In this document: positions 23,201-47,152 of the stretch, piece by piece
How the letters are laid out: each line of letters begins with the position of its first letter
How positions within the stretch are numbered: position 1 is the first letter of the stretch
Assembly: GCA_036172245.1 (NCBI GenBank)
Contig: JAYWIR010000003.1
Location: 4,216,001-4,280,000 of the forward strand
DNA: 64,000 nt
Source: Raillietiella orientalis
Taxonomy: Eukaryota
Direction of reading: 5' to 3'
Program-made: the position numbers and the translations under genes
Notes under the pieces: model-generated
What the model saw: only the letters and a program-made list of their open reading frames with translations
Databases searched by the model: none
Told to the model about the DNA's origin: nothing

Positions 23201-23285
23201 CGGGCGGGAGCGGGGTGCGACCAGAGGAGGTGCCGCGGGGAGCGAGGGTTGGCAGGGGAGACCTGGGGGAGGGGAGGGAAGGTTT

Positions 23286-26651: not shown

Positions 26652-28158
26652 TCAGCTGTCCTTTCCTGGGGGCGAAGACCGGCCCCCAGCTGTCGCCCGC
26701 TCGGCCTCCGACCTCCCGCTGTCGCTGTCGTTGCTGCTGCTGCTGCTCCTTCCTCCTCCCGTTGCTCCCGCTCCGGAGGAGGCGTCGACGGAGACGCCTT
26801 CCCTTTCGCTGGCGCCGTGCTTCTTGCGATGCCTCTCCAGGTTGGTCTGCTGCCCGAAGCAGCGGGAACAGCGGGAGCACCGGAAGGGGCGCTCCTTGCG
26901 GTGGATGTTGCGCACGTGGCGCTGCAGGTTGGAAGAGATGCTGAAGCAGCGGTCGCAGTACTTGCAGCTGTACGGCTGCTCCCCCGTGTGGGTGCGCAGG
27001 TGGCGCGTGAGGTTAGCGGAGCGCGGGAACGCCTTCCCGCAGTACCGGCAGGCGTGGCGGCTCCTCCCGCGGCTCCGCTGGTCCTCGGCGCCCGCGGCGG
27101 CTCCGAACCGCAGCCCGTCCGGAGGGAACGGCAGGCCGGCCGGATCGGAGGGCGACGGGGGGGTGAGCGCGTGGAGGGCGGGCAGGCCGAACAGCGACGG
27201 CACCCGCAGGGCATCTCCCCTGCCCGGCATCGGGAAGGCGGGGGAGGAGGAAGGGTGGTGGAAGTAGGGGAACAGGGGTGGCCCGGGGGGCGGAACCAGG
27301 TCGGTCAGACCGAGCGGGGGCGGGAAGAAACGGTCCGTCGTGGGAAGAGCAGCAGGAAGCGGCGGCGGCGGCGGCGGGAGTCTCCTCTCTTCCTGCCCCT
27401 CGCGGCGGCGGAGGTCGGGAGGAAGGAAGCCGGGGGCTTCGCGCTTGGGGGCCGCGCTGAGGTCAAGGGGTTGCTGTTCCCTGTCGCAGGGGAGAGCGGC
27501 CGTTGCTCCCCGGTCTTCCCGGGCGGGAAGCGGACACGAGGAAGACCGCCTCCCTTCCTGGCGTCCGCTCTCCTCCTCCTCCTCTTCCTCCTCATCTTCC
27601 TCTTCCTCCTCCTCCTCTTCTTCGTCGTCCTCCCCCTGCCGCCGGTCTCCCGTATCCGCCGCTGCAGGGTCGCCACAGGACCTCCGGTGCTTGGCGAGGG
27701 AGGTGACGTTGCTGAAGGCGTGGCCGCAGCGGCGGCACGCCACCTGCACGCGGCAGTCGGCGTGCATCCGCTTGTGGCGGCACAGGTTGGAGAACTGCGT
27801 GTAGGCCTTGCGGCACACGTCGCAGCGGAACGGCTTGACGCTGGAGTGGATGTGCGCGTGCTGCTTGAGGCCGCTGGACGTGGCGAACGTCTTGCCGCAC
27901 CGGTCGCACGCGTGCGACCGCGCCCCGACGTGCTGCGAGCGGACGTGGCGCTGCAGGTTGCTAGGGTCGTTGAACTCGCGCCGGCAGAACTCGCAGGAGC
28001 GCTTCCGGTCGTCCCCCTGGGGTGGGCGAGGGAGGGGGGGGCCCGGCCAGCGCTCCCGCCACCAGGCCAGAGCACGGGACGCCTCTTCCTGCAGGCGGAG
28101 GTCATCGCCGTCGCCGCGACGGCGGAGGCAGTGGCGCTCCGCGAGGTGCGTCTCGAAC
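26652..28158 (-). CDS. ham: Paralog A terminal coding exon (end of finger 1, four N-cluster fingers, acidic tract, PLDLS, three C-cluster fingers, stop)
   Basis: Open frame extends ORF 26652..27818 upstream to the acceptor ctttgcccttgcag|g. TGA at 26654-26652. Confidence 0.93.
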
Positions 28159-30004
28159 CTGCAAGGGCAAAGGCACGCCCCTCTCCTGCCTCCGCTTCCT
28201 CCTCCTCCTCCCCACCCCCTCCTCCTCCGGAGGAGCCACCCTCGACGCGGAGGGGGAGGGGCAGAGAGGGAAGGGACTGCTGCTACTCACCTCCTGGCGT
28301 CCTCCAGGATTTCGTCGCAGAGGAAGCAGCCGAGGGAGGAGGCGGCGTCTCCATTGCTTGGCCGGCCTGGAAAGGACGGGCGAGGGACGCGTGAGCAGAG
28401 GGGGAGCGATCGTTCCCTCCCTGGAAGGGGAGAAGGAAGGGACCGGCCCGCTCTTCTCTCTGGCGGAGCCTCTGGAGGCAGGGCGCCGTGGAGCGAAGGA
28501 ACTCTCGTCCCTCCTCCTTTCGGTCCTCGTCCATCGCGTACGCGACGGGGAGGGGGAGGGAAGAGGAGCGGGCGGGAACACTTCGGGGTTTTCCCCTGGG
28601 CAGAGAGCACTCACCGGGGTGCGGCGCGCTGCTGTGCCGCTCTTCGGCGGCGGTGGCGCCCTCCGGCGCGGGTCTCGTCTTCTCCGCCTCCGTCTCCTCC
28701 GCTCTCGGGGTCTCCTCAGAGGGGGACACCTGGAAACAGGAAAGTTCAGGGAGCGGGGGGAAGAAATTCGGGAGCCGTACCTGTGCTCCTTGGTCCGCTG
28801 CTTCGGGGGCGTCTCCAGCCGCCGCCGCCGCCGCCGCCGCGGCAGCACCAGCAGCCTGCGGGGGCGTCAGCGCGCGCGCACGCTTCCCTGAGTTACCAGC
28901 GGCGTCCGGTAGGCGAGGGTCCGCCCTGCCCCGCAGCATCGCGAGCTGGAAGGCACACACGTGAGGGGGAGGAGGGGGAGGCGTGGCGGGGGCGCGACCT
29001 GGGAGGATCGCCTCCCGGCCGGAGGGAGCGCCCGCACTCCTCCCTAAGCGCCCTTTGACCTGTCAGTCACGATTACCGGCGGCAGCAGCGGCAGTCCTCT
29101 CCCTCCCCGTGCCGCTCCGCCCCATCCCCATATTCTCCCCACTCCCTTCTCGCCGAGGGACCTGCCGAACGGACTTCTCTCCTCTCCCCCCCCCTTTCTC
29201 TCTCCTCAGGGGGAAAAAGGGGGGAAGGACGATGGAGAGGGTGGTCTATGGGGAGAGAAGGGAAGAGGAGACTTCCAGCCTCCCCAGCCCAGTCCCTCTT
29301 TCGACAGGGGTCGCTTTCCCCCCTGCATGCCCCCCTCTCAGTCCCCGTGCCAGCCTCGCACCGCGATTGGGAGGGGCGGACCGGCCTCGGGGAATGAGAG
29401 GAGGAAGAGGCGACCCCCGCGCGAAAGAGCGTGGGGCGAAGGGAAGCCCCCCGCTTCACGAGCTCCCCGCGTGCGTGTGATCCTCTCCGCCTACCCTCGC
29501 GCCGTGCTGCGGGACCGCTCCTGCACCTGACAGCCGGTCCTCCCGGATAGGGAGGCAGAGTCCCTGCTCCCGGAGTAATCGGCGATTATCGGTCGGCGGG
29601 GCCCGTGGGGAGGCGGCGGCGACTGCGACATTGTCGGGGGGCCCCATTCGCGCGCCCTGCGTCCGGGAAGGCGGGCGAGGGTTAAAAAAAAAAAAAAAAA
29701 AGGAAAAAAAAAAGAAAAAGGAAGAGGAGGAAAAAAGGGGAGGAAAGAGAGAAAGGCAGAGAGAGAGGGAGAAAGGGGTGGGGGGGGGGGCGAAGGGGGG
29801 GAGGGAAGGAGAGAGACGAATGGTTCGCCACCGCCGTCGGCCGCCATTAAGCGACCGACGTTTGGATGCCTCTCGTCCAGGAAGGGGGGACAAAGGGCGC
29901 GCGGCAGATAAGCCGCGACCGACAAAAGGGAAAACGGGATTAGAGCGGAACGGGAGAGGAGAGAAGGGGAGGAGGAGGGAAGCGGGGAAAGAAAGAAGAG
30001 GAGG

Positions 30005-30036
<32 letters not shown>

Positions 30037-32218
30037 AAGAGGTGGGGAGGAGGAAGAGGAGGAGGAGGAGGAGGAGGAGAGAGGGGTCCTCCTGTCAGAT
30101 ACGCGGGAACATTTCAATCAACCGGGGAAGGGGTCGGAAGCGTCAGGAGCGATCGTCCCGCCGCCTGCCGAGGAGCCATCTGCGAGCGCGCGACCCGTTC
30201 GTGCCCCTGGGGGCGTCGCGGGAGACGCCCCCTTTTGCACTCCGCACATTCCTCCTTCTTTCCCCCCTTCTCTTCCTCCTCCCACCCCCTCCCTTCCCCT
30301 CCCCTGCTTTCCTGAGCGGACCTTTTCCAGCCCTCTTTCCACGTTTTTTTTCGCCTTCTCCCCCCTCCAGAGCACGCGATGCATCCTCGGTCTCCCATAG
30401 CAACGCGCGAGAGGTGCGAGCGTTCGGGAAGCTTACCTCCCACGCCAGCTCCGGGTCCAGCATGCGGGCTACCCAGGGCGCCCAGAATGGAGCCAAGGGG
30501 TTACTCCGGGAGACGTCCTTCCCGTTCCAGACTGCCTCGCACGGCTCCTTCAGCTCCAGCCTGCCGGGAACGTCGCCGCCGGGAGGGCGCTCCAAGGCGG
30601 GGCGCAGCAGCGACGAGACGGAGAACCGCAGGGGCGCATCCATTCGACGCTGCTGCCGGGTGACCTCTGGAAGCACAGGGAGCTGAGGAGGGGTTGGTCG
30701 TGACCCAGAGCAAAGGAGGGGGGGGGGGGGAAGGAAGGAAGGAACAACCCAACCTGGGGCACAGCCCAGCACGAAAGCTGGGAAGGAGGAAGAAAGGGCG
30801 GAAGGAAGGAAACAGCAGGTCGCCGCCAGCGACGGCAGCATCCGTCTCACCCCTGCACGGGATGGAGCCAGCGACGGAGGCCGCCATCGCACCTGGGCCA
30901 CGAGGAGGCTCCAACGATGGCAGGAAACCTGGAAACTCGGTTTTGCGCCTGTGCACTCCACCTGTGCGGTGGTGCCCGGAGGGCAGGATGGGAGCAGCCT
31001 CCGGATGGCTCTTCGAGCTTGGACGGAAGCGCGCGACTCCCGAAATCCCTGCCCGTGTTGCACACCCGTCTGCCCAAGGGTACAGGAGGTCGCAGGGAGA
31101 CTGCGAGCGTCCCGGCACCATCCCACGGCACCGATGAGGCCTCATCCGCGCTTCCTTTTCCGGGAAGGAAGGGTTTGCTTCCGGGAGGATGCTCTCGTTT
31201 TCGTGGCGACGATACGGCAAGAGGGGGAAAAATTCCTTAGCGAAGACGTCCGCGCTTCCAGGAGAGTACCTTCAGGAGAGGAAGGAGGGGAGGAAGAGAG
31301 AAAAGAGAGCAGAGGGACTCGGGGAAGTGGGGTCGGCTCTCCTGCTCTCCCATGCGAGAGGGGGTGGCCGGATCCAGTGACCTCCCGAGAGGCCGCAGCA
31401 TCCCCTCAGAGGAGTTTTGCGCCTTCAGAGAGGCCCCTGCAGAGGAGCCACAGGGGCAGGGGGGTTCCTCCCGAGGAGACGGCGGATGAGCCCGTGGGTT
31501 TCGACCTTGAGGGCGGCGAGGTGGTGCCGCGGAACCCCAGGAAAAGGGCAAGAGGGAGGTCCCTGGGAACGATCTCGTCGCAGGGATTCCTGGAATTCCG
31601 AGTTGGCCTGCTCCCAGACCCCTCGAGAACGATCCCCCTCCGGCAGGAGGAAACGTCTGGGCGGCCATCGGGATCGTGCGCGTGCCCATGGGGCGCCCTC
31701 CGCCGCTCCCGATCGGACCCGGGCAGGCCTGGAAGGGGAGAAAGAACAGCTCCTGGAGGTGCAGTGTGTCGGTTCACCCACCTCCCTACGCGCCACCAGG
31801 GAATTCCCTGGGTGGTGTCCCTTTGGTCTGCCGCAGGACCGAGACGGGTTCGCGGGGACCCGGTAAGGGCCGAGAGGGCGCATGCCCGGTGGCAGGAGGG
31901 TCGGTCATCCCGGAAGCGGAACGCGCGCGCTCTCCGGATCGCTCATGTCCTCCCCTTCTTGTCCCCAAGGAGGGAAGGGGCAGTGCAGGAGAGCCCCTCC
32001 CCCGCCAGTCGCTGCCGCCCCCGCAGCGCCGGAAGGCTTTCGTACCTGGGGAGGCGCGAGCCGAGCGAGGAGCCCCTCGCGCGTGCCCGAGGGAGGGCTG
32101 AGGGGTAGGGATGGGAGGAATGGGAGATGGTGAGGGTGCTGCTTACCTGCAATAGAAGAGGCGGAGGCTGCAGGCGGCGAGCGAGCGAGGCTTTGCGGGC
32201 GCGCCCAGCGCAGGTCAT
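26652..32218 (-). CDS. ham: hamlet/MECOM(EVI1)/PRDM16-family PR-domain C2H2 zinc-finger transcription factor, paralog A. Spliced model join(32218..32147, 30682..30437, 28945..28781, 28729..28615, 28366..28291, 28158..26652), about 726 aa
   Basis: EVI1-diagnostic fingers ([88 protein letters not shown]) and a PLDLS motif. All introns are GT-AG with compatible phases (0,0,0,1,2). N-terminus MTCAGRARK resembles MECOM MRSKGRARK. Exon 2 ends ...LDPELAWE| like MECOM ...KDPSYGWE|. The 5' exons are less certain than the 3' exons. Confidence 0.85.
28291..28366 (-). CDS. ham: Paralog A exon 5 (first half of C2H2 finger 1)
   Basis: Acceptor cctttccag|, donor ag|gtgagt. Splicing rebuilds [22 protein letters not shown] with exact C-x2-C-x12-H-x4-H spacing. 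Confidence 0.88.
28615..28729 (-). CDS. ham: Paralog A exon 4
   Basis: Acceptor ttcctgtttccag|, donor ccg|gtgagt. Phase 0 in and phase 1 out, as in paralog B. Confidence 0.75.
28781..28945 (-). CDS. ham: Paralog A exon 3 (eroded central PR segment plus poly-Ala)
   Basis: Acceptor tgtgccttccag|, donor cag|gtacgg, 165 nt, phase 0/0. Confidence 0.7.
29684..30080. repeat. Polypurine tracts including poly(A), (GA)n and (GGA)n in paralog A intron 2
   Basis: Direct reading. Confidence 0.8.
30437..30682 (-). CDS. ham: Paralog A exon 2 (N-terminal half of PR/SET domain)
   Basis: Encodes [46 protein letters not shown] followed by the strong donor gag|gtaagc. Acceptor is cctcctcag| (alternative ccag| at 30666; alternative start ATG at 30643). 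Confidence 0.75.
32147..32218 (-). CDS. ham: Paralog A exon 1 coding part ([24 protein letters not shown])
   Basis: Strong donor cag|gtaagc, GRARK motif, and a CCAAT box about 140 nt upstream. Confidence 0.6.
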
Positions 32219-32239
32219 CGAGGGACCGCCATCCGGCCG

Positions 32240-32370
32240 CGAACGACGGTTAATGAGCCAGCGGGGTAGCCACGCGCCGCCGCTTTCCCCACCGGGAAGC
32301 CGGTGGCAGCCCCGCCGGGGACCGCCTCCGCCGGTGACGCGACGGCGGGAGGCGCGCCAATGGGAGGAGA
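32240..32370 (-). promoter_or_regulatory. Candidate promoter of paralog A
   Basis: GC-rich sequence directly upstream of exon 1, CCAAT box at 32357-32361, Inr-like TCATT near 32254. Confidence 0.45.
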
Positions 32371-35300
32371 GCGCGGAGCCGCGGCCTGCTTGCGGGAGAC
32401 GGGGGAGGGGGGGGGGGAGCGGCGGCGGAAAGGAAGGAAGGGAGGAGGAGGGAGAGGACGACAACGACCAGGAGGAGGCGGGAAGAGCCCTCCTACGCCG
32501 CCCCCTCCTCTCATGGGGCGGGGGTGGGCCGGCGGCTCGCCCGGCAGGCGGCCGCCACGCAGCAGCAGTGACGGCAGGGAAAGAAACACACGCGTCCCGT
32601 ATGTGCCTTGCCATTCGATCTCCAGGAACTTCTCGTTGACCAAGGTTTGAGGGAGGAGAAGGAACACGCCTCTTCTCCCATCTTCCCTATTTTAATTTTT
32701 ATTTTTTTGCGTGTGTCTTTTATTTTTTTTTTCTTCCTGCCCCCCATGCTCATGGAGCTTCGCCAGACGCTCGCGAGAGGACTCTCGCCAGACTGGGCGC
32801 TGATCTCCCGCAGCCTTGCTCTCGCGCGCGGCCGCATGGCTCCTTCCCGACGGGAGAAGACGTCCCCGTCTGGTCGGCAGAGGGGGGATCGGGAGAGGGA
32901 CGCCCTCCTTCCCTTCCCTGATTCCCTTCCCCTCCCCCCCGCGTCCTGAGTCAAGGGAAGTTCTCGTGGGCCCCGGAGATTTGCCTTTCGATCCGGGCAG
33001 TGAGGATGGGAGGGGGAAGTGGAGGAGGCTCCCCCTACCTCCCCATTGGAACCTCCCTCCTTTGCTCCCCGTTCCTCCGATAAAGGTCAAGGTGGAGAAA
33101 ACGCTCGCCCTGACCTGCTCCTTCTGAGGGCTGCTGCTCCTGAAATCCTCGACTCCTTCCTTCCTCTGTACCTCGCCCCATCTCTCCTCTTTCTCGGAAG
33201 CGGGAAAAGTCCTCGAGTCTTCCGGGTCGTGCCGCCGTCATCCCGGTCCAGGCTGCTCCATCCAGCGATCTGCACCTGGGCAGCCTCCACGGCAACGAGT
33301 CCTGCAAGCGATCTTAGAGGGGTGTGAGGGACGCCGCCGCCTCCTGAAGACCTTGCATGCCCCCTGCAGGGGTCCCGGTCCCCAAGTCTGCTCCGAAAAG
33401 CTTCCGGAAGGAGCGAGGAGGGGCCACGGGAAGAGCGGGAGAGATTCCCCTCCCCTTCCCTTCCTTCCCGCGCTCCCGTCGGCGAGTCCCTGGGAAGGGT
33501 CCGGCCTCGCCGCGAGGGGCCTCTCCCTCGCGCGGGAGGGGTCCCTCCTCCCGGTCCCGCCTCCGCCTATTATCCCTCACAGGCGCCGCGCCCTCCTCCC
33601 GCGGGCGAGCGAACCGCGGCCGGGAACTCTCGGCCAATTAGCCGGGACGCGCGCGTTTCGTCCTCGCCGCCCCGTCGGGCGCGTCCCGGACGACCGGGAG
33701 CGATAATTGCAGGTTCCCCCGTTCCGTCGGCCGCGCCCATCCCGGGTTGCTGCCTTTGTCCCCCCCCCCTTTCGCCCGCCCGCCCGCCGCGTCTTGCGCC
33801 TGCTCGGCGCAGCCCGGGATGAAAAGGGCGCCCCCCCCTGCCCTTCCCAGAGGGGAAGGGGGGAGGAGGAACGACGGGGGAGCCGGCTATTCCCAGACGC
33901 GGGGAACGCCCACGGGATCTCCAGGAAGGAGGCCGACAAAGGGGGGACTCCGGAGGAGTCCCGGAAGATGCCCTCCGGGATGAAAAGGAGGAAGAGGGGA
34001 GGCGAGAAAGAAAAGCGAGAAAGCCGTTAAACGGGGTCGAGGGGTGGCAGTCCCGGAAAGTGGGGCGGGATGGGGGGAGGAAAGCAGAGGGTTCCCGGGG
34101 GAGGAAAGGAGGCGCCTGCCTCCCGGATGTTCCGCGCGGGGGACGCGGCGCCACTCCAGGAGAGGCGGCGAGGAGAGCGAGGGGTGAAGTCCCGGTCCCT
34201 CGCTCCCGGATGAGGGATCGGCAGTCGGGAGGCGTGCGGGCCAAATGACCCCCACATTTGTCTCCCCTTTGTGCGTCGCTCCTGGTGACGGATGGGGCGT
34301 CCCCCTTATCGGCTGCTCTCGCCCCGGGGACGAGCGGGGAGGAGCAGGGAGATCGCCGCTTCCGATAGCCGGCCGGGAGGATCCGGGAGTGAGGGAGTTC
34401 CGGAGTGCGGAGAGGGCGTGGAGCAACCCTTTGGAGGAGGAGTTTGGACGGGTATGATCGGAGGGCCCCACCGGTCCGTCGGCGGGAAGAAGCACGCCCC
34501 TCTGCATTTTCCTCCTCTTCCTCCCCTCCACCTCTCCCTACCCTCCGGATGTCCCGGAACGCACCGTCGCTCGGAGGGACAACACCTCCCTGCGGACTGC
34601 GCGTCCCGGCGCCGCCACCTCCTGAGAATCCTCTTCGCCGAGTCCCGTCCCTCGTGGGGATCGCTCCGGGATGGGCGTCGGAAAGAGAGGAGGAGGGGGC
34701 AGGAAGTGGTCTCGGCGGTGCGTTCCTGGGACTCCAGCTCCGGGGAGCTCCACCGCCCACCCAGGGATGTCCGGCTTGGACCGGGCGAGCGCTGCGGAAG
34801 GGGACCGGCCCTCGCCCCTGTCACAGCCTTTCGCTGGACTTCCGCTGTCTCGTCGCAAGGAGGACCCGGAGGGCTTCGACTGGGTGGAGGGGGACGGAAA
34901 GTCGCCGGCCGACTCTCCCCGGGCGCCAAGGCGGGCCATCTCCTTCTCCGATGCCGCAACAGAATTTCTCATAATTAGACAGGTGGAAATGGAAAAGGGA
35001 AGGAGGGGGAGGCTGTCTGACCACGTCCCGCGCCCCTGCTCCGAGCTCAGCTCCTGGGCGGGGGAGGATTCGCTCTCCCCTGAATTCGAACCCCCTTCCA
35101 GGAGGCCTTTCCCCGACTCGGAGCGCCCAAAGGGCCGAGGTATTTCCTGGAAAGAGCCGCGGACAGCTCGAAGGGACGGTGCTGGACTTTGCCCGATGGG
35201 GCAGATGGGAGTGGAGTCGCAACGCTGCCTCTGTCTGTTGCCCTGCCTAGAGACGGCGCTCACCGGCGAGGCGACCAGGGAATGCCTCCTTTTCCCTGGA

Positions 35301-38300
35301 GGCCATGGAACGGAAGGAGACGAAGGAGTTCCTCCTCCTCCTCCCTGCCGCTGCTCCACTGTCTCTTCTCTCCGCAGGGCGGTCTGCGGACCCAAAGGAG
35401 GGGACCGGTGGACGAACGCGGCAGGGGAAGAGGGAGCGTGTGTAGGTGTGTGTGTGTGAGGGGGGGAGAAACAGGAACAGGGGGTGGTCTTCCTGGAGGA
35501 GACGGACGTGGGCGCTCCTTCCCCGAGTTCCGGTTGTTGTCAGAGGGGTACCTCTGACCACCCGCGAGCAACGAGGGCAAATCCGACCTCGTAGCCTCTG
35601 CCGATTCCTACCGGATGACGACCGGGAGGGGACGGTGAGCTATCAGTGGGTTTCATGAAGGCAGAAGGAGTTGGGGCGGGTAGGACGGGAAGGAAGGCTG
35701 GTCGCCTCCCCTCCCTTCCGCTGCTTGCAGCCCCAGAAGGCGACGAGCGTTCGCGATGCAACGCTGGCGGTTCGCATCATGGGGACGGTGGCACGCAGCC
35801 GCTGCAACCTTCCTTCGCGACCACGCTGCGGAGATGGGATTGAAGGGATCACGGTGGATGGCGGTCCTTCCTCACCCTTTCCGTTTTCCTGCCCTTTGCA
35901 AGAAGACCAGAACGCTGCCCGGACTGCTGCCGAAACCACTTAAGTGGAGCCTCGTACGCGTTGCCGTGACGACGGGACGCGATGAGGAGAGACGCCAGGC
36001 CTAATGAAACGGGCCGCTCGGCTAATGCACCGTGGAGGACCGCGGCGCTTCCCCAGCCAGAGTCCGGCGCTCCCTCGGTCACGGAGAGCAGGGAGCGCAT
36101 TATTCGATCCGCCGTGTAGGGCCGGTTGGTCTCTCCCTCGTCCCGTGCGCCCTTCCCTACTCGGGCGCCGGCAGAGCAAGCGGCGGATGGCGATCCTGGT
36201 TTTCCCACGGCTATGGATGGGTAGTTCCTAGGGAACTGGATTGGTCTTAAAGAAAGCAGAGGATGCAAGGGTCCAGTGGGTGAGCGACTTGGACCAGAGA
36301 CCTGACCCTCTCCGCAGCCACGGGGCGAACCCCGCCAGCGGCACGCATTCCCCTTCCGAGTGGACCGGTCGCGGTTCCCTCAGAAGGCATCGCGAAATCT
36401 GGCTGCGAGGATTCCCAGGGCTGCAGGAACCATTGCGGCGAGGCCGCTGCAAAAAGAGGTCGGGACACGGCCGTGGGAGCTACAGTGACTCAGAGGGTAT
36501 GGAAGAAGAAATCTCTCAGGAGGTCCAGAAGTTCACGAAAGCATCCGAGCAAGCAGCAGAGACGGAAATTATGTATATAAATATTTTTATGTTACATAAT
36601 AATATTAAAATTATGTAAATTTATACTAAAATAAGAAGAAACGCGAAGAACGAGTGGACGCGGTCTTGAAGAACGGACAGTGAAGGCGCGGGACAGGTGA
36701 GGAGTACTGAGAGGAACAGATGAACGCGACTGCGAAGGACGAGAATCTGAGATTGCAAGAAAGGATTTAAGTCCTTGCAGGAGCAGTGAGTGAGAGGGGT
36801 TGCTCCCGAGAGCCAGTAATCCTCCGCGAGCACCCATGTTAACAGTCGGCGGCAGGCATCATGCTGCAGCCTGCACGCGCCACCACTGCGATCTCCTGCC
36901 GGCGGGAGTGTCAGAGCAGCACCACGAGTCATCCGGCGCGCGAGCGCTCCTCCGCGCGGATGGGTTCGCGCCTGCCACTCGGATTTCGTTCGGCAAAAAT
37001 GAAGGCGAAAGGTGCCGTGCGTGCGTGTGTGCTTGCGTGCGTGGGGAGGGGGGAGTTACACGCTGAGGGGAAGGCCGCGAACTGCCCACGGATCGTTCCG
37101 CGGCTGCTGCCACTCCTCGGGTCAGCTGCCGGCGTCTCGTCTCATCCGAAGAGACGTGGAAAGACGCTGCTGCCGCTGCCGGACCTTCACCTCTCTCCTT
37201 CACCCTCTCACTCTCTCTCTCTCCTCGATCGGTCAACCCCCCCGTTTCCTCTCCTCCGTCTTTCCTTAAGCAGAACAATCGCTCTGGAGACGGCGGGTGT
37301 CTGCTGAGTCCGCCGTCTGGCGACGTCTTCTGCATCCGCCGCCGCACGTACATCAGAAGCGCCTCGGTCAAACGAGATGATCACGATGACGATGACGGCC
37401 ATGAGGAGGAAGAGGACAAGGGGGAAGGGACTCTCTCTGCCTCTCCGTGTGCCCATCTTGCGAGAGCAGCATCCTCGGCGCTCGCCCAGGTCGGGCGCCT
37501 CTTCGTTCCGACAGCAGGCGCTCCTCTAGCCAGCTCGTCGGTGGGCAAAGAGAACGGACGGCGTCCCGCACTGATGGGAGAGACCAATAGGAAGGCAAAG
37601 ATCTACGGGCTCCACGGGAGCTCCAGAGATGCCAGTAAATCAATCCGCGCGCGGATACCGCCGGACAAGCGGGGGAGCTTCGTCGGCAGCCTTCCTCCCT
37701 GGAATGCGTCTCTCCACTCTCGAGGATCCACGCCTGCGGAGACGGACTCCGCCGCCGAGGGTGGCGTCCATCACACGCGGAGTAGGGTTAGTTTCCCCCT
37801 CTCTCATCCTATTCCTCCCCAGTTGTGCAGCCTCCGGCGATTCAAGTGGCCACGGCACTCTCCGAGAGCCTGGGAAGTGTCAACGGGGTTCTTTCACGGC
37901 CGACACCCTGGTCGACCATCCCTCCCTCCGTCCTCACGCAGGCAATCCTCGTGCATTTCCTTTAGGGAATGGGATGGGTGCGGGGGGGGGGGGAGGGAGA
38001 TCCGTTTCCCCTGCGTTCTCTTCTTTCTGGACCTCGGCTAGCCACACGTCTCTCGATGCAGCTTCCGGTTCCGGCGGGGGTGGGGAAGGGGCTGGAAGGG
38101 AAGAGAGCAGGAAGATTGAACGAGGCGGTCCTGGGGGTCACAGACCCCTCCGGAAGTCGGTAGGATCTCCCGAGGCTAATCTGCTTGCCCCCTGCATGTC
38201 CAGGAAGGGGTTCGGGTATGGCTTCTTCCCCCTCGTCCTCCTCCCTACCTTGCCTGCCCCACGCCAACGAAGGCGTTTGGCTGTGCCCTGCCGGCAGCCG

Positions 38301-39699
38301 GTCGTCTCCTGGCGCTCCGCCTCGGGGGGCGGGAAGCGAAGGGTCGGAGCAGATGGCTGCCTCCAGCTTCCCCTTCTGCCTGTGAGGGATGCTCCCAGTG
38401 AAGCTCAGAGACGACCGGGATCTCCGGGAAAGGAGGCGGCGGGGTGAGCGTCCCCCGGATAGGGTGACGGGAGAGTCCTTTTGCCCCAGAGGGAGCCTCT
38501 GGCCAGCACTGAGGTTAGCACCACTCCCTTCCGCCTCCCTCCATGCCCGGCTCTTACGAGTCCGGCGAGCGAACGGGTGCCGGACTCGTGAGAGAGACGG
38601 TCTGAGGGCTTCCCCGTTCCTACGGGGGGCGGAATCGGAGTGAATGACACCCTCGTGCAAGGGTCCCTCGACCGTCGCGGTCCGCTTCGCCGCCGTGGAT
38701 TTCCCTGGTCCACAGGTGCCACCGCGCAGGGAATCCACGGGGTTTCCTGTGACGCGGGGAAGGAATGGAGGGGAGGGAACGCACTCCCTTCCGTTGAGGA
38801 GCGCTCCCGTTTCTTCTGCTGCCTCTCGCAACTCCAACCCTCCCCAGCCGATCTGAAGAAATTTCCCATCCCTCTTCCTCTGGAAGGGAACTCCCCCCTC
38901 GGATCCACTGAGGTGCTCTCGGGCATTCTCCTGTTCCTGAGTCCACCCTTCGGGGTTTCTCCGGAGGGATCCCAGAAGGAGGGGGTTCAAAAGTGGGCCT
39001 AAGAGACGCTGTCTATTTGCGTGTCGAGCATCTTCTGGATGCCGCGCTCCCCTGTCCCTCGTTCCCAAGGTAGACGGGAGACCCCGTTGTTTCCTTCAGC
39101 CCTTCCCACCTGACGCTCCTCCGACAACGCAGGACCGTAGAGGGTTTTTTGGAAAATGGCAACCTCTCCAGGGACTCCTCTCCTCGGGTTATGCCTCTCC
39201 TGGTTCAGTCGGACAGAGCGGTTTACCGGCTGGGAAGTGGATCGGGAGCGGAAAGATTCCTCCCTTCCTCCCTCCTCTCCCGAACGGGCTTCTCACTTCC
39301 TGCCCTGTGGCTCGACCGCCTCCGACGGCCCTCCTTCGCACGCGAGGAACCCGGTATCTTACCAGAGTCCGCAGGTACATCCAAACTCGTCCCCGGGGTC
39401 TCGGTGAGTCTCCAGGAAGAGTCGCCTTCCGCCTCCGTGGGGTCGCGCCCTCTTTTTCCAGGCTGCCTCTCCCCGCGCACCACAAGAAGGAAATAGGTTC
39501 CGGGATGCGTTTTCTCGTCTCGATACCCGCCAGGCCGACGGTAACCCCGGAGGAGCGAGGTTACCGTACCAGGCATTCCTCACCTCGCTGCGGTCCTTCG
39601 CCCAGGTCACTTTCCGCCTGGAGGCTGCGCGTGCCCCTGAAAGACGCCATCCGCAAAGGCAGCTCCCTCCCGCCCTGCCGGGAGCACAAGTCGTTCAGC

Positions 39700-41900
39700 C
39701 CCAGAACCGCACCCCGGCCATTCGTCCCGCCGCTAGCGCGCCCCTTCCGTGTCTATTGACACACCGTGGCGTACGCAAAGGAGCGTAAGTTCCTCTCACT
39801 CCCCGGGGACTCTCCTATGCGCCTGCTCACAGCTCTGACCTCCCAGAGCGCAGTGCCACGGTTAGGGCACTTCTTGTGCGCGGAAAAGTAGGTCTTCTGA
39901 AGGGCAGTGGACCCCGCCAGAGTGGGCGAAAGGGTCAGGAGTTCAGGGAGACTCCTTGAAGGTTGGTCCGATAAGCAGCACCGGCGTCCTCGGCCCGCAA
40001 GGGGAACGGTTGGCGCACTCCTGTTGGCGGGGGTAGGCGCACATTCTTGAAACTGCTGCTCGGAGCATATTCCTCGCGACGTCGCGTTTCTCGAGTGACC
40101 TGGAAGAGTCCTCAGGGTCTCTCCCGGCAACGCCCAAACTGCTATTCACTTGGCTCTCCTCGGCATCTCCTAATCCGACCTTTGCTCTCTTCCCTCTCTG
40201 AGTCTCCTGGAGATGCCCTTTGCTCCACGAGTTTCCCTTTGGAAGGAAATCAGGAGTTCGGTAGATACGGCATCACCAGCGGTCGAGGAGGAGGGAGAAA
40301 GGGGAGGGGGGCACGAGTATCCCTGCGTCGAATCAGAGCCAGAAACTCTTCTTGCCACGGAGCATTCTGGAACGTTCCGCAGGTCTTCTGCTGCCCGAGG
40401 GGAAAGGAGAAAGCAAGGAATAAGTCGCCTCGGGAAGAGGGATGCACGCATCTCTTCTGCCTGAGGGCCTGCTCCGAGCTCCCTTTCCGGTTTTCTCCCC
40501 TCCGTGGGAATCTGCGTCCACTCTGCCACGTATAGGGGCACCTCTTGCGCTACGGAAGGAGGTGCAAGGTCCATCGGCGTTGACCTCCCTACCCTCTTCC
40601 ATCCATGAGAGACGAACAGATCAAGAGGGACGGGATCTCTCGCCCAGGCTCCTCGGCCTGCCTTCCTCCCCACAGAAAGTCGTTGATCCCCTGGACACGT
40701 CCAGGGGAGAGAAACGAGGAGGTCCTTCCGGGAACTTTGAAGCTGCACGGATGCCCGCCGCCACACTCGCCTCTCCCCGTTGAGCAGAAGTTCCCCTCCT
40801 TCCCTTTCCTCACTTCCTCTCTTCTCCCTCCCTCCTTCCTGACATCCTCTGAGATGCCTCCCGGTCCCTCTCAGAGAAGAAGAAGCCCAGTCTTCCTTCC
40901 TTTACGTTCCGGATTATCTCCAGAACATGAAAACTTTCGAGTTTCTCTCCTGGAGAAAGAGGAATGAGGAAGAGGAGGAGTAAGAAGAGGAGGAGGAAAA
41001 AAGAAGGAGAATTCTTGACTCTTTTCGTCTGAAACGAGGCAGCAGCTGTTGCAGATGGAGTCTCCTCGACCCCAGGGAAGACCCTGCCGGAGGGAACAGT
41101 GAACGCGAAAGTACGGACAGTGGCAAAGACGCCCTTGAACAGCTACGCTGCCATAACCAAGGCAACAACAATGAAACTGCCGCTGGCAGTGGCGGTGATT
41201 GTAATGAAGAGTCAATGGGCCAGTAAGCAGAACAGCAGCCGATATGAAGGCCGCGGCCGAGGAGTTCCGGACTTCGCTCCTGGGTGCCATCCGTCCTATG
41301 GACGGATGTGCCTTCGCGGCGAGAGGTCAGGCTCCTGACCAGGCACTTCGTCGAGGGGCACCTCCGACCCGGAAGCAACATGCCGGCTCGGGAGAAGCTG
41401 TCGCGCCGCTCTTATACCTTTTTTTTCCAGGCGCGCTCGAAGGCCACCTAGCCACGGCCACCCCCTCCACCAGCTGCCCTGCAGCCTCCGGTCAGGAGTA
41501 GCGTCCTCGCCACGTCTCCCGCCACCCCAGGTCAAAAGGATGCTAAAAGGCAGAAAGGCCTTCCGACTGCCGCCTGTCGCGCGCGAGCTTGGAAGGACCT
41601 GGCAGTCGGAGGTCCTCGGAGTGGCTTCCAAGCACGGTAGAGGCCCTTGGCCACCTGTGTGCCCCCGGAGGAGGTCCCGACCCTTGAAAATGATGTGCAT
41701 ACCCGCAGCATCCCTCAGAAGATCGGCCTGGTGTCGAAGTCTTGGGTCTGCGGGGAAGATCGCCAGCTAGCTTTCGGGATCGGAACCAGCAGCCTCTGAT
41801 TCCAGTTCCAGTCCCCTCGCACCGCTGGCTTGCGCCGACTCCCGGACGCATCTTCCTTCGAGGGGGAGACCCATTCTCCTCCGATCCTTCTGCGTCATCT
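39700..41900 (-). mobile_element. Decayed non-LTR retrotransposon RT fragment; boundaries approximate
   Basis: GSVAVQGRLCHCPYFRVHCSLRQGLPW resembles VxVNGxxSxxFxVxxGVRQGxPL. Confidence 0.4.
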
Positions 41901-42799
41901 CTGAGTGGCTCAGACGTCTGAGTGTGCATGGCCTGCCCCTGCGGGGGGGCCCTTCTTGCCCTGCTGGCCCGGGAAGAGCGAGCGAGGGAGCTGCTTCCCC
42001 ATGAGGAAGGAGGCACTCGCGGATGAGGAGGCCCAAGCGGCTCCGCCGGGAGGGGCGAACGGGGAGGTTCCCCGGGATCGCCAAAGTCCGCACAGGAGTG
42101 GGGCGGTGTTGCGAAACCGTTCCCAAGGGAACCTGAAGCGCGCGGGGATTATTTGGAGCGAACCGAACAGTCTACGAGAGCGCAGACCTTCTCCTCCCCC
42201 GCCTCAACTCCACCCTTCTTCTAGTGGCGTCTTCTACGCTGCTCGCTCCTCCTTCTCGCCCTGCTTTTTCCGCGTCCGCCTGCTCGATCTTTCGCCTCTC
42301 GCGGCGGAACGGGAGGCCGAGAGGGCGGGGGCGGGAGAGAGGGAGGCGGAGGGAGGGATGCCCCGGCCCGCCGGAAGGCAGGTTTCCTGTTTCCAGGTCC
42401 CAAGCCCCCGCCGTCAGCAGCCGGGCGGCGAGCGGTCGCTACCGTTTCAGCGAGGCGGGTGTTTTCCCCACATCCCGCCCAATCCGTTCAGAGAAAGATT
42501 CCGCAGACGCCGGACCCGATGGGAAAACACTTCTCAGATGCGGAGTCTGCGGGTTGAGATACGCCCCCGGACTCCCTCCTCGGCATTCGTGCCTGTCAGC
42601 GGAGCAGGAAGAGCGTTCGCAGATCCCGAACAGCGCGGACGCTCCTGGCAGCGCCGCCGAACTGGAGGCGGAGGCGGCGGACGACTCTCGGAGGCCGCTC
42701 TCCGAGCGATGGACCGTTCGCTCCCTAGGGACTGTGAGTGGTAGTGCCGGATCGTCCGCTCCGATAGAGAGAGGGGGGGAAGAGAAGAAGAGAGGGAAA

Positions 42800-43930
42800 G
42801 GAGGAGCAGGACGCTCTCCCTATGACGCAGCTCCGCCGACACAGGAGATGCACTGCGGTTCCTCTCCCGTCTCCGGAAGAGTCCACCTTGCCGAGAGGAG
42901 TTCCACCCTTGGATCCTCTACACGTACCTCTCCATCTCCCCCTTTTCTGTCCTCGCAGTTCCTTTGCGCTCTGGGAGGCATGATCCTCGCCTGCTCCTTC
43001 GAGTGTCTCTTGGTGCTCCTCCTAGGGAGAGATGCGCATCCTGCGGGAATAAGAGTAGACAGCGAAGGGGACGTAGCACTTTTCTGGGCGGAACACTAGC
43101 ACACGTTTGAAAGGGAAGAGGGAGGGGGGTTGGAGACGCGAGAGGCCACGGAAGTGGGAAGATCGGCTCTGAAGAGATGTAGAGAGCTCGCGCTGGCCGA
43201 TCCTCGGGCCTGGAGTCCCCTCACCGGCTACTCGCTCATGAGCAGGCAGCAAGGGCTGCTGCTGAACGAGTCATTCCGGTTTCGCTACGGATTGCTGTCA
43301 ATGCTACTCGGTTGCTCTGGACTACCGGAAGCGCGAAGTGCGGAGCGTTCTGAAGCAGCCGTCTCAAAGTCTAGCGCTGAAAGGCGGTTCCTTTGTGACG
43401 AAATCCCGGGTGATGAGTTGCTGGAGAACGCTGACCATCTGCGAGAGACTACGACGAGCTCCATGTCTAGGGACCGCTCTCTGCAAGCCGGCTGCAGGAA
43501 GAGACGCTCTCGAACAAGCCGGCCTCCTCCACGTTTGGCACGTCTTTGCTTTGCGAGCCGCAGTCTTGGGAGAGAGGGAAGAAAAAATCTCCAGGTTCAC
43601 TCTGGGACGCTGCGAGCTTTTCCTCAAATGGAGCATCCTTGCTGATGGACTTTCAGATGGATTGCTCTCTGATGAACTCTGTTGAGCAGCCATTGAGCTG
43701 CTGGGACTCGACTCCCCTATGCTATCGAGGAAACCTGTGTCTCGGTGTCACTCGTGGGATTGGGTCGATCGGGAGAGTGCTCGAAGCAGAGGGGATCCTG
43801 TCTCGTCGGGTCCGCTCTTCGTTTCCGAATTCGGAGACAGGCATTAAGCTCAGCCGCTCCTCGTTATTAAACGACATCGCCTGTTTCGAGGGAAAAAAAG
43901 AACCCTCTCATAAATCCACGATTTCTTGTT
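42800..43930 (+). mobile_element. Decayed L1/Tx1-like post-RT fragment
   Basis: TPLCYRGNL...GIGSIGRVLEAEGILS resembles the PLWxN...GIxxIxDL...GxxLS post-RT segment. Confidence 0.35.
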
Positions 43931-43969
43931 CTCTGTCCTGGTAAGGCTTGTAGAGCTCTCCTTGCTTCG

Positions 43970-44200
43970 GGGTTTTCATCCATGTAAGATTTTCATTGCT
44001 TTCTATTTTCATCGTTGTCAGATTTTCACTATTGTTCTATTTTCATTGTTGCCGGATTTCCATTGTTGCTTCATTTTCATTGTTGCCGAATTTCCATCGT
44101 TGTTCAAGTTTCATCGCCTTCGGATTTTTTAACTTCTGCAGTTCTCATTGTTGCGAGGATTGCTTATTACTGATATCTCTACGAAATTTCATTGTTGCAA
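43970..44200. repeat. Degenerate 17-18 bp minisatellite (ATTTTCATTGTTGCCGG-like)
   Basis: Recurring TTT(T/C)CAT(T/C)GTTG core at 17-18 nt spacing. Confidence 0.75.
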
Positions 44201-44219
44201 AGGTTTATTTGACCCTTCG

Positions 44220-45500
44220 TTAGACCCAATCTTCAGCACATTTCTCTCTCGTTCTCATCGGAAGAGATTGGTGGGAGATGGGCGGATCTGGACTTGCCTC
44301 CCTGCTTCCTCCACGTAGTGCGCGCGCCTTGAAATCTGGAATTCCGGGGACGTACCAAGCCAGCGTCAGAGATCCGAGGCCAGCGGTCGTAGGGTGAGGA
44401 CTCTCACTAGCATTCCCGCCTCCGAGGGAAGAGGATGCGAGCCCCAGCGTTGTTGTTTTCATGTCCATCGTGACCTGCTGACCTTAACCAGCCCGAAATA
44501 CAGGGTGGAAGGCAAAACTTCACCCACAGCGTTCATTCTTGCATCCTGCGAAAACGGAGGTGGGAAGTGGAGATCCTGGTGATCAGTGGGGAGGTGTGCT
44601 CGGAGTGTTCTCGCCTTCAAGGATGGCTGTCTATCTTTTCACCAAGTTCGCACACAAGACCTCTCTCTGCTCGTGATGGGGGGCTCCCAGACTCTTTTCC
44701 CCTATGCAAGATGCAGAACTCATTGCTTTCCACGGTCCTATCTCTTCTTCCTTCCATCTCTACTCAGAACAAATCTCCCCTCCCCGCCTGCTGCCTACAC
44801 GACTCGGTTTCCTCGGAAAACAGTCTGTAGACCCATCTTCCCTTCCTCATCCTTCCCATTTCAGAAAGTACCACGTGCCCTTCAGCAGTCAGCCTCCGAC
44901 AGAAATGCGTGGGTCCGCGACCCTTTCTCCAGATCACATTTCTCCCATCCCTCCCAGCTACTTCCTCCCTTAAAAAGTTGGACGCAGAGAGAGGCAGGTG
45001 GGATGAAGGCGAACGAGGTGACCACTACCTTGCGCTGAACTCCGGAGAAACCACTGAGAGGCACCTCTGTCACCCCCCCGTCTCATCGTCTTCCCAGATG
45101 CCAAGGAAAAGTGGAAAGGTGGAGTCCATGAAGTATTTAAGGAGCCCATTGGAGGAGAGGGGACTGAAGGTTCTCCAAGGCAAACGGGATGAACCGAGGA
45201 GGTGAAGGCGAAAGAAAGAACGGTGCCATGACAACATGCCCAGCCGAACCCACGCTTCTAGCAGTATGGACCCACAAGGAAGTTACCCTCCACGGGCAAA
45301 AATTGGGTTCATTCTTAAACACATACGGAAAATTCTTCCAGATGACACGAAACTACAGTCGGCAGACGGAGAGTCCGACGTCCCGTAAGAATTCTGGGAG
45401 AGAGTGGCAGAAACGATTCTCTGCTGCCTGACTGGGTTGCCGGAGGGACTTCCCGAGGATGCCAAGAGGAGAGGGGACTCTGTCCGGGTGCGCAAAAAGG
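44220..45500 (-). mobile_element. Decayed L1/Tx1-like RT fragment just downstream of paralog B
   Basis: LSPSPPRFIPFALENL (LSPxLFxLALEPL-like) followed by GIPDFK (GLGxPD-like). Confidence 0.45.
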
Positions 45501-45594
45501 CTTCAGAGGTCCTCGACCCGTTAGAATAGGTGAGGGTTGCGGAAGGAACAGGGATGAAGGTTTCTAAGGAACGACTGTCGCGGCGTAATCGAAT

Positions 45595-45600
45595 TTTATT
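45595..45600 (-). terminator. Polyadenylation signal AATAAA of paralog B
   Basis: AATAAA on the minus strand about 105 nt downstream of the stop codon, in an AT-rich patch. Confidence 0.6.
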
Positions 45601-45705
45601 GATTTTTTTTTTCCCTTATCACAGATGGGGCGTCTTCCTGTTCGCTCCGTCTCCCGAAACAAGGCAGAGGGGGTGAGAAGTGGGGTGAGACTCCCTTGTG
45701 TATTG

Positions 45706-47152
45706 TCAGGGCTTTGTCTCCGAAACCTCTTCCTTCATGTTCTGGCCCTCCTGGGAAGACGGATCCTTCGTGACTGGTGGTGGTTCGGCGGAGTCCACCT
45801 CATGCTTGCGCAGGTGACGATCCAGATTGGTCTGCTGCCCGAAGCAGCGGGCGCAGCGCGAGCATTGGAAGGGGCGCTCCTTGCGGTGGATGTTGCGCAC
45901 GTGGCGCTGCAGGTTGGAAGAGATGCTGAAGCAGCGGTCACAGTACTTGCAGCTGTACGGCTGCTCCCCCGTGTGGGTGCGCAGGTGGCGCGTGAGGTTA
46001 GCGGAGCGCGGGAACGCCTTCCCGCAGTACCGGCAGGCGTAGCGGTCTTTGCTCCTGGTGGGCAGGGGTTGCGAGGGCGGCGCTCCAGAGACCGTGCGGA
46101 TGCTGCCGCTGCCGCCCACCATCAGCGCACTCATCCTTCTTCCTCCTGGCACCAGCAGATCGGTCGGCAGACCGACGAGCCCGTAAGGGAAACCTGCAGC
46201 CGCGGCTAGCAAGGCCTCGGCCGGCGCTGCCGATGAGGGCGCGTGGGTGAGACCGACTCTGTCCTCCTCTTCTTCCTCCTCTTCTTCCTCCTCGTCCTCT
46301 TCTTCGTCCTCTTCCTCGTCTCCTTCTTCCTCCTCTTCGAGGCGATGCCTCCCTTCGCTGCTGAAGTTCTTGCTCAGATCCAGTGGTTGCAGCTCCCCGC
46401 CTGCTTCCCTCGGCCCCTCTTCGCAGTCCGAGGTTCCCTCCCGGTCGTAGGGGCACCAAATGCCTCCCTTCCTGCGGTTGGGCGGCTGGGAATGGACGGG
46501 ACGTTGCACCCCGGCGCGGTTATCCCGAGGCGTGCCCACTCCTGCGGCCGCAAGGGAGAATGCAGCGGCTGCGGCTGCGGCTGCCGGGACGGAGGAGGCA
46601 TCGCAGAAGCGGCGGTGCTTGGCGAGGGAGGTGGTCGTGCTGAAGACGTGGCCGCAGCGGCGGCACGCCACCTGCACGCGACAGTCGGCGTGCATCCGCT
46701 TGTGGCGGCACAGGTTGGAGAACTGCGTGTAGGCCTTGCGGCACACGTCGCAGCGGAACGGCTTGACGCTGGAGTGGATGTGCGCGTGCTGCTTGAGGCC
46801 GCTGGACGTGGCGAACGTCTTGCCGCACCGGTCGCACGCGTGCGACCTCATGCCAGCGCCTCCTGCTGACGGTGGTGCTGCGCGGACGGGATGCTGAGAA
46901 CGCACGTGTCTCTGTAGACTGCCTGGGTCGCCAAACGTCCTTCCGCAGCTCTCGCAGAGGTGCTGCGGCTGCTGCTGCTGCTGCTGCTGCTCGAGGTCGC
47001 TCTGGTGGCGGTGGCGGCTCCTCGAGTAGTGGTGCCGATGGGATACAGGGCGTAGTAGCAGTTGTGGCTGCCACGAGAAGGCTTGCGTGTACATCCCGCA
47101 GGGGTGCCAGTCGCGCGCAAATCCGTGACCCTTCCTCAAGTGGACGTCCATA
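45706..47152 (-). CDS. ham: Paralog B terminal coding exon
   Basis: ORF 45706..47151 (481 aa) with seven intact fingers, poly-Q, acidic tract and PLDLS. Acceptor ccactcctcag|t. Confidence 0.93.

What the first reader, a model, noticed from the sequence alone, without database searches (positions are those of the whole stretch)
26842..46848. Tandem hamlet/EVI1 paralogs with concerted evolution confined to the two DNA-binding blocks
Seen: 27721-27919 versus 46649-46847 differ at 1 of about 199 nt, and 26882-27055 versus 45867-46040 differ at 1 of about 174 nt. The shared sequence includes T-ending synonymous codons (TCT, GCT). The flanking parts of the same exon, the other exons and the introns cannot be aligned by eye. 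Intron phases are conserved, so this is an old whole-gene duplication. Inference: recurrent gene conversion keeps DNA-binding specificity identical while the effector regions diverge. Extreme GC3 bias could explain part of the identity.
Basis: partly seen in the sequence, partly recalled or inferred. Interest (0 to 1): 0.72.

Follow-up and report, generated by a model that had tools for sequence, protein, structure and literature searches.

The report
Gene conversion between tandem hamlet paralogs
Two old neighbouring copies of a developmental gene in an arthropod are almost letter-identical only where they encode DNA-binding zinc fingers, most likely because one copy has recently overwritten the other there, a known process that also affects other close gene pairs in this genome.

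Summary
Two same-strand Prdm3/16 (hamlet/EVI1) paralogs, 19 kb apart, share three intron phases. Synonymous sites are saturated in finger 4 and the PLDLS motif, yet only 2 of 122 codons differ synonymously in the two tracts (dS 0.025), against 22 of 50 outside (p=5e-12). Codon bias is rejected: an unlinked paralog differs at 17-18 of 49 codons and a homolog with GC3 1.00 at 13 of 53. Gene conversion is the best explanation. The adaptive gloss is not supported: contact residues of the converted fingers are invariant in all 116-120 parsed homologs anyway, and the paralogs differ at contact positions in fingers 4 and 7, just outside the tracts. Other close transcription-factor pairs in this genome (Otx-like, 16 kb; FoxO-like, 31 kb) show the same domain-limited tracts, while 12 pairs 45 kb or more apart do not. 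Precedents: engrailed/invected, Capitella Dlx, TPRX1/2. The scan noted the same pattern before in odd-skipped paralogs of another genome, and conversion elsewhere in this one. Recurrence and assembly quality could not be tested: no close relatives or reads were found.

The parts
26652..32218 (-). Gene A, Prdm3/16 (hamlet-like), model of 7 exons, 738 aa: 32218-32147, 32097-32046, 30666-30437, 28945-28781, 28729-28615, 28366-28291, 28158-26652. The first two exons are tentative.
   Evidence: GT-AG junctions and open frame; homologs named hamlet/MECOM/PRDM16 (query was gene B); no transcript data
45706..47780 (-). Gene B, Prdm3/16 (hamlet-like), model of 4 coding exons, 593 aa: 47780-47676, 47601-47439, 47360-47294, 47152-45706
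   Evidence: GT-AG junctions, phases 0/1/2 equal to gene A; 7 C2H2 matches in the last exon
27719..27919 (-). Tract 1 in gene A: fingers 5, 6 and start of 7; one difference from B at 27753
46647..46847 (-). Tract 1 in gene B
26882..27055 (-). Tract 2 in gene A: fingers 8 and 9; one difference from B at 26955
45867..46040 (-). Tract 2 in gene B
27930..27995 (-). Finger 4 of gene A, not homogenised: 9 of 16 shared codons differ synonymously; keeps the common contact set D/S/N/R
46891..46956 (-). Finger 4 of gene B, not homogenised; contact set D/G/S/R; GC3 0.59
46849..46890 (-). Linker between fingers 4 and 5 in B, 11 codons longer than in A; forms the sharp 5' border of tract 1
27675..27718 (-). 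Tail after tract 1 in A (helix of finger 7): N at position -1 where B and most homologs have T
26817..26881 (-). Finger 10 in A: same contact residues as B, 6 of 17 shared codons differ synonymously
27456..27473 (-). PLDLS (CtBP-type, label recalled) motif in A; counterpart in B at 46372-46389; 4 of 6 codons differ synonymously
30437..30666 (-). Exon of A with the N-terminal half of a degenerate PR domain; no such exon found for B in the window
   Evidence: own HMM from 8 homologs, E=3e-4 over the six-frame window, next hit E=0.97; no Pfam hit
47439..47601 (-). Exon of B with a C-terminal remnant of the PR domain; not detected in A
   Evidence: own HMMs, weak (E=0.004 against the two proteins); no Pfam hit
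23198..23412 (-). Decayed partial copy of gene A's inter-finger region including the PLDLS motif, with a stop; 78% over 123 nt, 68% over 219 nt

Best explanation
Genes A and B come from an old tandem duplication of the arthropod hamlet (Prdm3/16) gene. Purifying selection kept the finger-coding stretches alignable while everything else drifted apart. Because the copies lie 19 kb apart on one strand, a double-strand break in one copy is sometimes repaired on the other, and the copied tract runs only as far as homology lasts. That leaves two tracts of about 200 and 175 nt, bounded on the 5' side by an 11-codon length difference and by unalignable sequence, and fading on the 3' side. Shown: tract identity far above every control, sharp borders, old divergence elsewhere, similar tracts in other close gene pairs. 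Inferred: conversion as the process, at least two events, A as the likely last donor (or GC-biased repair), and conversion as a tolerated by-product and not an adaptation.
For: Synonymous differences 2/122 inside vs 22/50 outside, Fisher p=5e-12; dS 0.025 in tracts, 0.74 in tails, saturated in finger 4 plus PLDLS. Unlinked paralog on contig C2: 17/49 and 18/49, with 9 of 10 four-fold codons differing. Metagenome homologs: lowest 12/53 among 32 loci for tract 1 and 10/48 among 64 loci for tract 2. At protein level A and B differ at 0 of 123 tract residues but 15 of 59 other finger residues; among 735 homolog pairs with 13-17 such differences none has fewer than 2 tract differences, median 11. 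Contact residues of the converted fingers are invariant in all parsed homologs. Same genome: an Otx-like pair 16 kb apart shares a 115-nt exact run that includes a 54-nt GT-AG interruption; a FoxO-like pair 31 kb apart is 96% identical over 174 nt; 12 pairs 45-293 kb apart are 73-85% identical where measured, with 26-73% synonymous differences. A copy of A's non-finger region 4 kb away has decayed to 68-78%. GC3 of B jumps from 13/22 in finger 4 to 118/122 in the tracts (p=4e-6) while A does not change (p=0.39).
Against: No close relative with both genes was found (best homolog 104 of 123 tract residues), so clustering by species could not be tested. No reads could be laid on the locus. Recurrence is not demonstrated: whole tails 9/28 match the unlinked level (p=0.46) and only a post hoc inner part is lower (2/19, p=0.017). 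Distance is confounded with age among the control pairs. The passive reading is an inference: selection favouring homogenised fingers would give the same tracts.
Confidence: 0.74

Rival explanations
1. Conversion is real and is kept by selection: the two proteins must bind the same sites (or share finger-binding partners) while carrying different effector parts, for example a long form with a NuRD-binding N-terminus and a form without it. Tract ends mark sites where selection keeps them different.
For: 21 residues found in under half of 120 homologs are shared by both copies inside the tracts. Tract 1 ends just before contact-position differences in finger 7, and finger 4 differs at +2/+3. A has a PR N-half and a tentative N-terminus resembling the start of homologs; B lacks both. 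In mammals only PR-containing isoforms bind RBBP4/NuRD through residues 1-12 (PMC6379669, abstract and passages read).
Against: Contact residues are invariant across homologs without any conversion. Other close pairs show the same pattern, which proximity alone explains. A's first exon is tentative and lacks the R-S-K start seen in the homologs. The 5' border of tract 1 coincides with an indel, a mechanical barrier.
Confidence: 0.16
2. Assembly artefact: polishing or consensus calling copied one paralog's sequence onto the other.
For: Tract lengths (170-260 nt here and in the other pairs) are close to short-read scale. No reads were available to check.
Against: Inference: reads from copies about 82% identical (the level of the C2 paralog) map uniquely, so cross-correction needs copies that are already near-identical. 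Each tract keeps one internal third-position transition, frames are intact at the borders, the contig is 7.4 Mb, and the effect depends on genomic distance, which read mis-mapping would not.
Confidence: 0.06
3. Purifying selection on the protein plus extreme GC3 codon bias, without any exchange.
For: GC3 in the tracts is 0.95-1.00; the fingers are among the most conserved parts of the family.
Against: A codon-usage null built from these finger codons expects 42.5 differences in 122, P(<=2)=2e-23. L008 with GC3 1.00 differs at 13/53 and L043 with GC3 0.98 at 10/48. All 29 four-fold and 33 six-fold codons are identical between A and B.
Confidence: 0.02
4. A recent duplication followed by very fast divergence of everything except the tracts.
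For: Head-to-tail arrangement; both proteins are fast-evolving relative to homologs.
Against: Synonymous saturation in finger 4 and PLDLS, unalignable introns, and an A-specific fragment that has itself diverged by 22-32%.
Confidence: 0.02

Closest known systems
Capitella teleta Dlxa/Dlxb (PMC3199776; abstract and passages read)
   Same: Closely linked old transcription-factor duplicates with a conversion tract (150 bp by GENECONV) confined to the DNA-binding domain while the rest of the gene is diverged; unlinked or distant pairs in other annelids show none.
   Different: Homeobox, inverted pair, tract includes intron. Here C2H2 fingers, same strand, two separate tracts inside one exon.
Hexapod engrailed/invected (Peel, Telford and Akam 2006; not held; known only from its citation in PMC3199776 and from recall)
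   Same: Cited there as gene conversion in the homeobox genes of a linked arthropod pair.
   Different: Shown across many species (recalled); here one genome only.
Mammalian TPRX1/TPRX2 (PMC8208926; passages read)
   Same: Repeated conversion, more frequent in the homeobox-containing part, has prevented divergence of the DNA-binding domains; functional consequence unclear to the authors.
   Different: Demonstrated by phylogeny in many species; young fast-evolving genes on either side of CRX.
Prdm3/16 subfamily, Drosophila hamlet = Prdm3/16a and CG10348 = Prdm3/16b (PMC4760075; passages and supplement hits read; supplementary file 1 not searchable)
   Same: Two finger clusters with the family's invariant helices; arthropod-type PR remnants. 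Duplications are known in Gnathostomata, Pancrustacea and Hymenoptera.
   Different: This genome has three copies. The C2 copy with only the last three fingers is probably the b-type gene (inference), so A/B looks like a further duplication. The word 'conversion' occurs once in that paper's main text and 'tandem' not at all; the passages shown did not include it.

Membership tests
Prdm3/16 (hamlet/MECOM/PRDM16) | C-terminal cluster of three C2H2 fingers with the family's helices | tested here: met
   Contact sets RANR, ISNR, QTNR equal those of 120/120, 120/120 and 117/118 parsed homologs
Prdm3/16 (hamlet/MECOM/PRDM16) | N-terminal finger cluster | tested here: met
   Fingers 4-7 present in both genes; more N-terminal fingers are degenerate remnants. 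Numbering inferred from the 7+3 layout in PMC10553128 (passages)
Prdm3/16 (hamlet/MECOM/PRDM16) | N-terminal PR/SET domain | tested here: inconclusive
   No Pfam hit. Own HMMs find only the N-half in A and a C-terminal remnant in B
Prdm3/16 (hamlet/MECOM/PRDM16) | PLDLS co-repressor motif between the clusters (recalled feature) | tested here: met
   Present in A, B and the C2 paralog
Prdm3/16 (hamlet/MECOM/PRDM16) | Placement in a tree with Prdm3/16a or b | not tested
   No tree was built; homolog searches returned no close relative
Interlocus gene conversion | Tract of synonymous identity significantly longer than expected within an old paralog pair | tested here: met
   Fisher p=5e-12; permutation p=4e-5
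Interlocus gene conversion | Identity not explained by codon bias or protein constraint | tested here: met
Interlocus gene conversion | Paralogs cluster by species in the tract and by locus outside it | not testable with these tools
   The genome has no relatives in the genome tool; best homolog is 104/123 identical in the tracts
Interlocus gene conversion | Sequence confirmed by independent reads | not testable with these tools
   No run was listed
Long-term concerted evolution | Repeated events over evolutionary time | tested here: inconclusive
   Two tracts separated by 665 and 608 nt of unalignable DNA; tails only partly intermediate

The most novel reading that the evidence does not exclude
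The long and PR-less isoforms that mammals make from one MECOM or PRDM16 locus have been split here into two genes: A with a NuRD-recruiting-type N-terminus and the PR N-half, B starting inside the PR domain. Ongoing conversion locks their core fingers together so that they compete for the same sites with different effector ends, while selection holds fingers 4 and 7 apart. More widely, this genome would homogenise the DNA-binding domains of most transcription-factor pairs within about 30 kb (hamlet, Otx-like, FoxO-like), which limits how such duplicates can diverge.
Probability: 0.13. Interest if true: 0.62.

Novelty: new member of a known kind. Interest (0 to 1): 0.36.

Why it matters
It is a clean case of domain-limited gene conversion, with unusually good internal controls: an unconverted finger next to the tract, an unlinked third paralog and a decayed neighbouring fragment. 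I found no report of it in the Prdm3/16 family (paper searches; listings only, open-access library only). Practically, trees or duplication dates based on zinc fingers or homeoboxes would make such old pairs look recent. With the Otx-like and FoxO-like pairs, the genome offers a testable distance rule for conversion between developmental regulators. It does not show a new mechanism.

Tried and rejected
Sequencing runs: none was listed for 26600-32300, which is no evidence either way; no reads were laid. Search of 50% cluster representatives with A's last exon: the 150 listed hits were many-finger proteins of at most 48% identity, so no close relative was seen. Second homolog search with the C2 paralog: 120 listed, no close relative, taxon not resolved. 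Solved structures: 14 matches at E<=1e-20, all unrelated finger arrays, no EVI1/PRDM16 finger structure among them. First metagenome scan used a wrong reading frame and found nothing; repeated correctly. Pfam scan of 63 other long ORFs of the window: 0 of 63 hit, so no neighbouring gene was identified; ORFs were picked by length, not exhaustively. Same-prefix paralog pairs among metagenome loci (9 pairs) differ at 10/57 to 34/52 synonymous codons in tract 2, so none shows the hamlet-pair pattern; their linkage is unknown. L088/L089 (2.6 kb apart, 96% over 260 nt) was not counted as conversion because L089 ends in a stop and looks like a partial duplicate. In one search the synonymous counts for L118/L119 and L126/L127 were made on an antisense frame and were discarded; L122/L123 gave no alignment. 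A protein tree was not built because without close relatives A and B would be sisters under every hypothesis. No structure or complex prediction was run.
Full report
Observation. Self-BLAST of the window finds these as the only long, high-identity matches (235 nt at 97.4%, 225 nt at 96.4%), plus a 123-nt match at 78% near 23.3 kb and low-complexity hits. The window is G000:C3:4216001-4280000 of a 210-Mb assembly in 491 contigs, and only these two copies of tract 1 exist in it.

The genes. Two minus-strand reading frames of 544 and 527 codons carry the fingers. A search with gene B's last exon returns proteins named hamlet, MECOM or PRDM16 from many arthropods, molluscs and annelids. GT-AG models give gene A seven exons (738 aa) and gene B four coding exons (593 aa); the last three introns have phases 0, 1 and 2 in both. 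No transcript supports the models, and A's first two exons are tentative. Profiles built from homologs find the N-terminal half of a PR domain only in A (E=3e-4 in the six-frame window, next hit 0.97) and a weak C-terminal remnant only in B; Pfam finds neither. The PR remnants resemble the arthropod homologs, so I treat the organism as an arthropod; it was not identified further. A third, unlinked family member on contig C2 matches only the last three fingers. Vervoort et al. (PMC4760075; passages and supplement hits) report Prdm3/16 duplications in Gnathostomata, Pancrustacea and Hymenoptera. The C2 gene is probably the b-type copy and A/B a further duplication; this is inference, as no tree was built.

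The duplication is old. In finger 4, 9 of 16 shared codons differ synonymously, and in the PLDLS motif 4 of 6; together these are saturated by Nei-Gojobori counting. Two of the three shared introns give no BLASTN match and the third only 10-18 nt matches. A fragment at 23198-23412 copies A's middle region specifically and has itself decayed to 68-78% identity with a stop, so the A/B split is older than that copy (inference).

The tracts are young. They contain 2 synonymous differences in 122 codons and no amino-acid difference in 123, against 22 in 50 in alignable codons outside (Fisher p=5e-12); dS is 0.025 inside and 0.74 in the tails. A permutation test on runs gives p=4e-5.

Codon bias does not explain it. 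A null from the finger codons' own usage expects 42.5 differences (P(<=2)=2e-23). The C2 paralog (GC3 0.89 in the tract) differs from A and B at 17 and 18 of 49 codons, including 9 of 10 four-fold codons, whereas A and B agree at all 29 four-fold and 33 six-fold codons. A metagenome scan gave 70 loci with homologous DNA. Of these, 32 had a scorable tract 1 and 64 a scorable tract 2; the rest were absent, cut or interrupted, and many loci are near-duplicates of each other. The lowest values were 12/53 and 10/48, and a locus with GC3 1.00 differs at 13/53. Protein constraint alone also fails: of 5151 pairs among 102 usable homologs (of 120), 735 differ at 13-17 of the 59 finger residues outside the tracts, as A and B do (15), and none of these has fewer than 2 differences inside (median 11).

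Where the tracts stop. Tract 1 begins right after a linker that is 11 codons longer in B, and tract 2 right after unalignable sequence. Both fade on the 3' side. The inner parts of the tails are less diverged than the unlinked level (2/19, p=0.017, boundaries chosen after looking), but the whole tails are not (9/28, p=0.46). The tracts are separated by 665 and 608 nt that cannot be aligned, which suggests at least two events. Recurrence over long times is plausible but not shown. B's GC3 rises from 13/22 in finger 4 to 118/122 in the tracts while A's does not change, and both residual differences are T in B. This fits A as the last donor or GC-biased repair; the data cannot separate these.

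Does conversion keep specificity identical? Using the recalled rule that helix positions -1, +2, +3 and +6 contact DNA, the converted fingers 5, 6, 8 and 9 carry the same residues in 119/119, 116/116, 120/120 and 120/120 parsed homologs. Selection alone keeps them. A and B differ at these positions in finger 4 (D/S/N/R, as in 106 of 117 homologs, against D/G/S/R) and finger 7 (N/T/S/K against T/T/S/K, as in 98 of 113). So the C-terminal cluster, which binds ETS-like motifs in EVI1, is predicted identical, and the N-terminal cluster, which binds GATA-like motifs (PMC10553128, passages), is predicted to differ. What the tracts do share is 21 residues found in under half of the homologs, all at non-contact positions. 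Whether these arose before the duplication or were spread afterwards cannot be told without relatives.

Genome context. Earlier scan notes reported conversion in other gene pairs of this genome (unchecked), which prompted a test on linked transcription-factor pairs. I fetched 40 of 79 homeodomain matches and 12 loci chosen as linked neighbours among 16 Forkhead, 30 HLH and 17 HMG matches, and compared 16 pairs, 15 of them alignable. Family labels are mine, recalled from the domain sequences. Three pairs lie within 31 kb. The Otx-like pair (16 kb, same strand) has a 115-nt exact run that includes a 54-nt GT-AG interruption of the homeobox, with unalignable flanks over 5 kb; that interruption is in frame and stop-free, so it could be coding. 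The FoxO-like pair (31 kb, inverted) is 96% identical over 174 nt, reaching about 15 nt into the intron, with a small divergent island. The third close pair looks like a partial duplicate and was set aside. Twelve pairs lie 45-293 kb apart: eleven have 26-73% synonymous differences, and one, scored by DNA only, is 73% identical. Distance and age are confounded in this set, but the pattern fits a proximity-driven process that is not special to hamlet.

Artefact. No sequencing run was listed, so this is argued, not tested. Copies about 82% identical would attract their own reads, each tract keeps an internal third-position transition, frames are intact at the borders, and the effect depends on distance.

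Comparison. Conversion limited to the DNA-binding domain of linked regulators is described for Capitella Dlx (PMC3199776, abstract and passages), for engrailed/invected (cited there; the paper was not held) and for TPRX1/2 (PMC8208926, passages). Five searches (listings only) showed no report for Prdm3/16. An earlier scan note describes the same pattern in odd-skipped paralogs of another arthropod genome (unchecked).

Most novel reading. Mammalian PRDM3 and PRDM16 bind RBBP4/NuRD through residues 1-12, which the PR-less isoforms lack (PMC6379669, abstract and passages). A's tentative N-terminus contains a G-R-A-R-K stretch like that of many homologs but lacks their R-S-K start, and B begins inside the PR domain. 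The pair could therefore be a long and a short isoform split into two genes that share core fingers. I put this at 0.13.

Verdict. Real, well controlled, and best explained by interlocus gene conversion confined to what purifying selection left alignable. It is a new example of a known process. Interest 0.36.

Noticed in passing
window 23198-23412 (minus strand): Decayed partial copy of gene A's inter-finger region with the PLDLS motif, 4 kb downstream of A; weaker similarity continues to about 23600 in a purine-rich stretch.
   Followed up: partly
window 23410-23442 and 56379-56411: A 33-nt sequence inserted in the decayed fragment has an inverted copy (94%) 33 kb away, on the far side of gene B.
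   Followed up: no
G000:C2:537701-539482 (L001): Third Prdm3/16 family member with only the last three fingers and the conserved motif that follows them in homologs; A and B lack that motif in their last exons.
   Followed up: partly
L086/L087 (G000:C28, about 92.7 kb and 108.7 kb): Otx-like tandem pair with the 3' part of the homeobox and a 54-nt GT-AG interruption identical, and the rest unalignable.
   Followed up: partly
L116/L117 (G000:C6, about 5.643 Mb and 5.612 Mb): Inverted FoxO-like pair, 96% identical over 174 nt of the forkhead exon, with a four-codon divergent island inside the tract.
   Followed up: partly
L088/L089 (G000:C29, 958.3 kb and 960.9 kb): NK-type homeobox with a 260-nt partial copy 2.6 kb away that ends in a stop codon.
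   Followed up: partly
window 30437-30666 and 47439-47601: Complementary decay of the PR domain: A keeps the N-terminal half, B a C-terminal remnant. A's exon also holds an F-S-V-S-S-L-L stretch like an eh1 Groucho-binding motif (label recalled).
   Followed up: partly
window 51950-52050 (minus strand): Possible non-coding first exon of gene B with a strong donor site and an AT-rich box upstream; no start codon seen.
   Followed up: no
window 48589-48767 and 43973-44116: Two degenerate minisatellites (22-nt unit, 8 copies; 34-nt unit, 4 copies) in AT-richer DNA upstream and downstream of B's coding exons.
   Followed up: no
whole window: None of 63 other long ORFs has a Pfam match; the two genes appear to sit in a gene-poor, GC-rich (60%), CpG-undepleted region.
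   Followed up: partly
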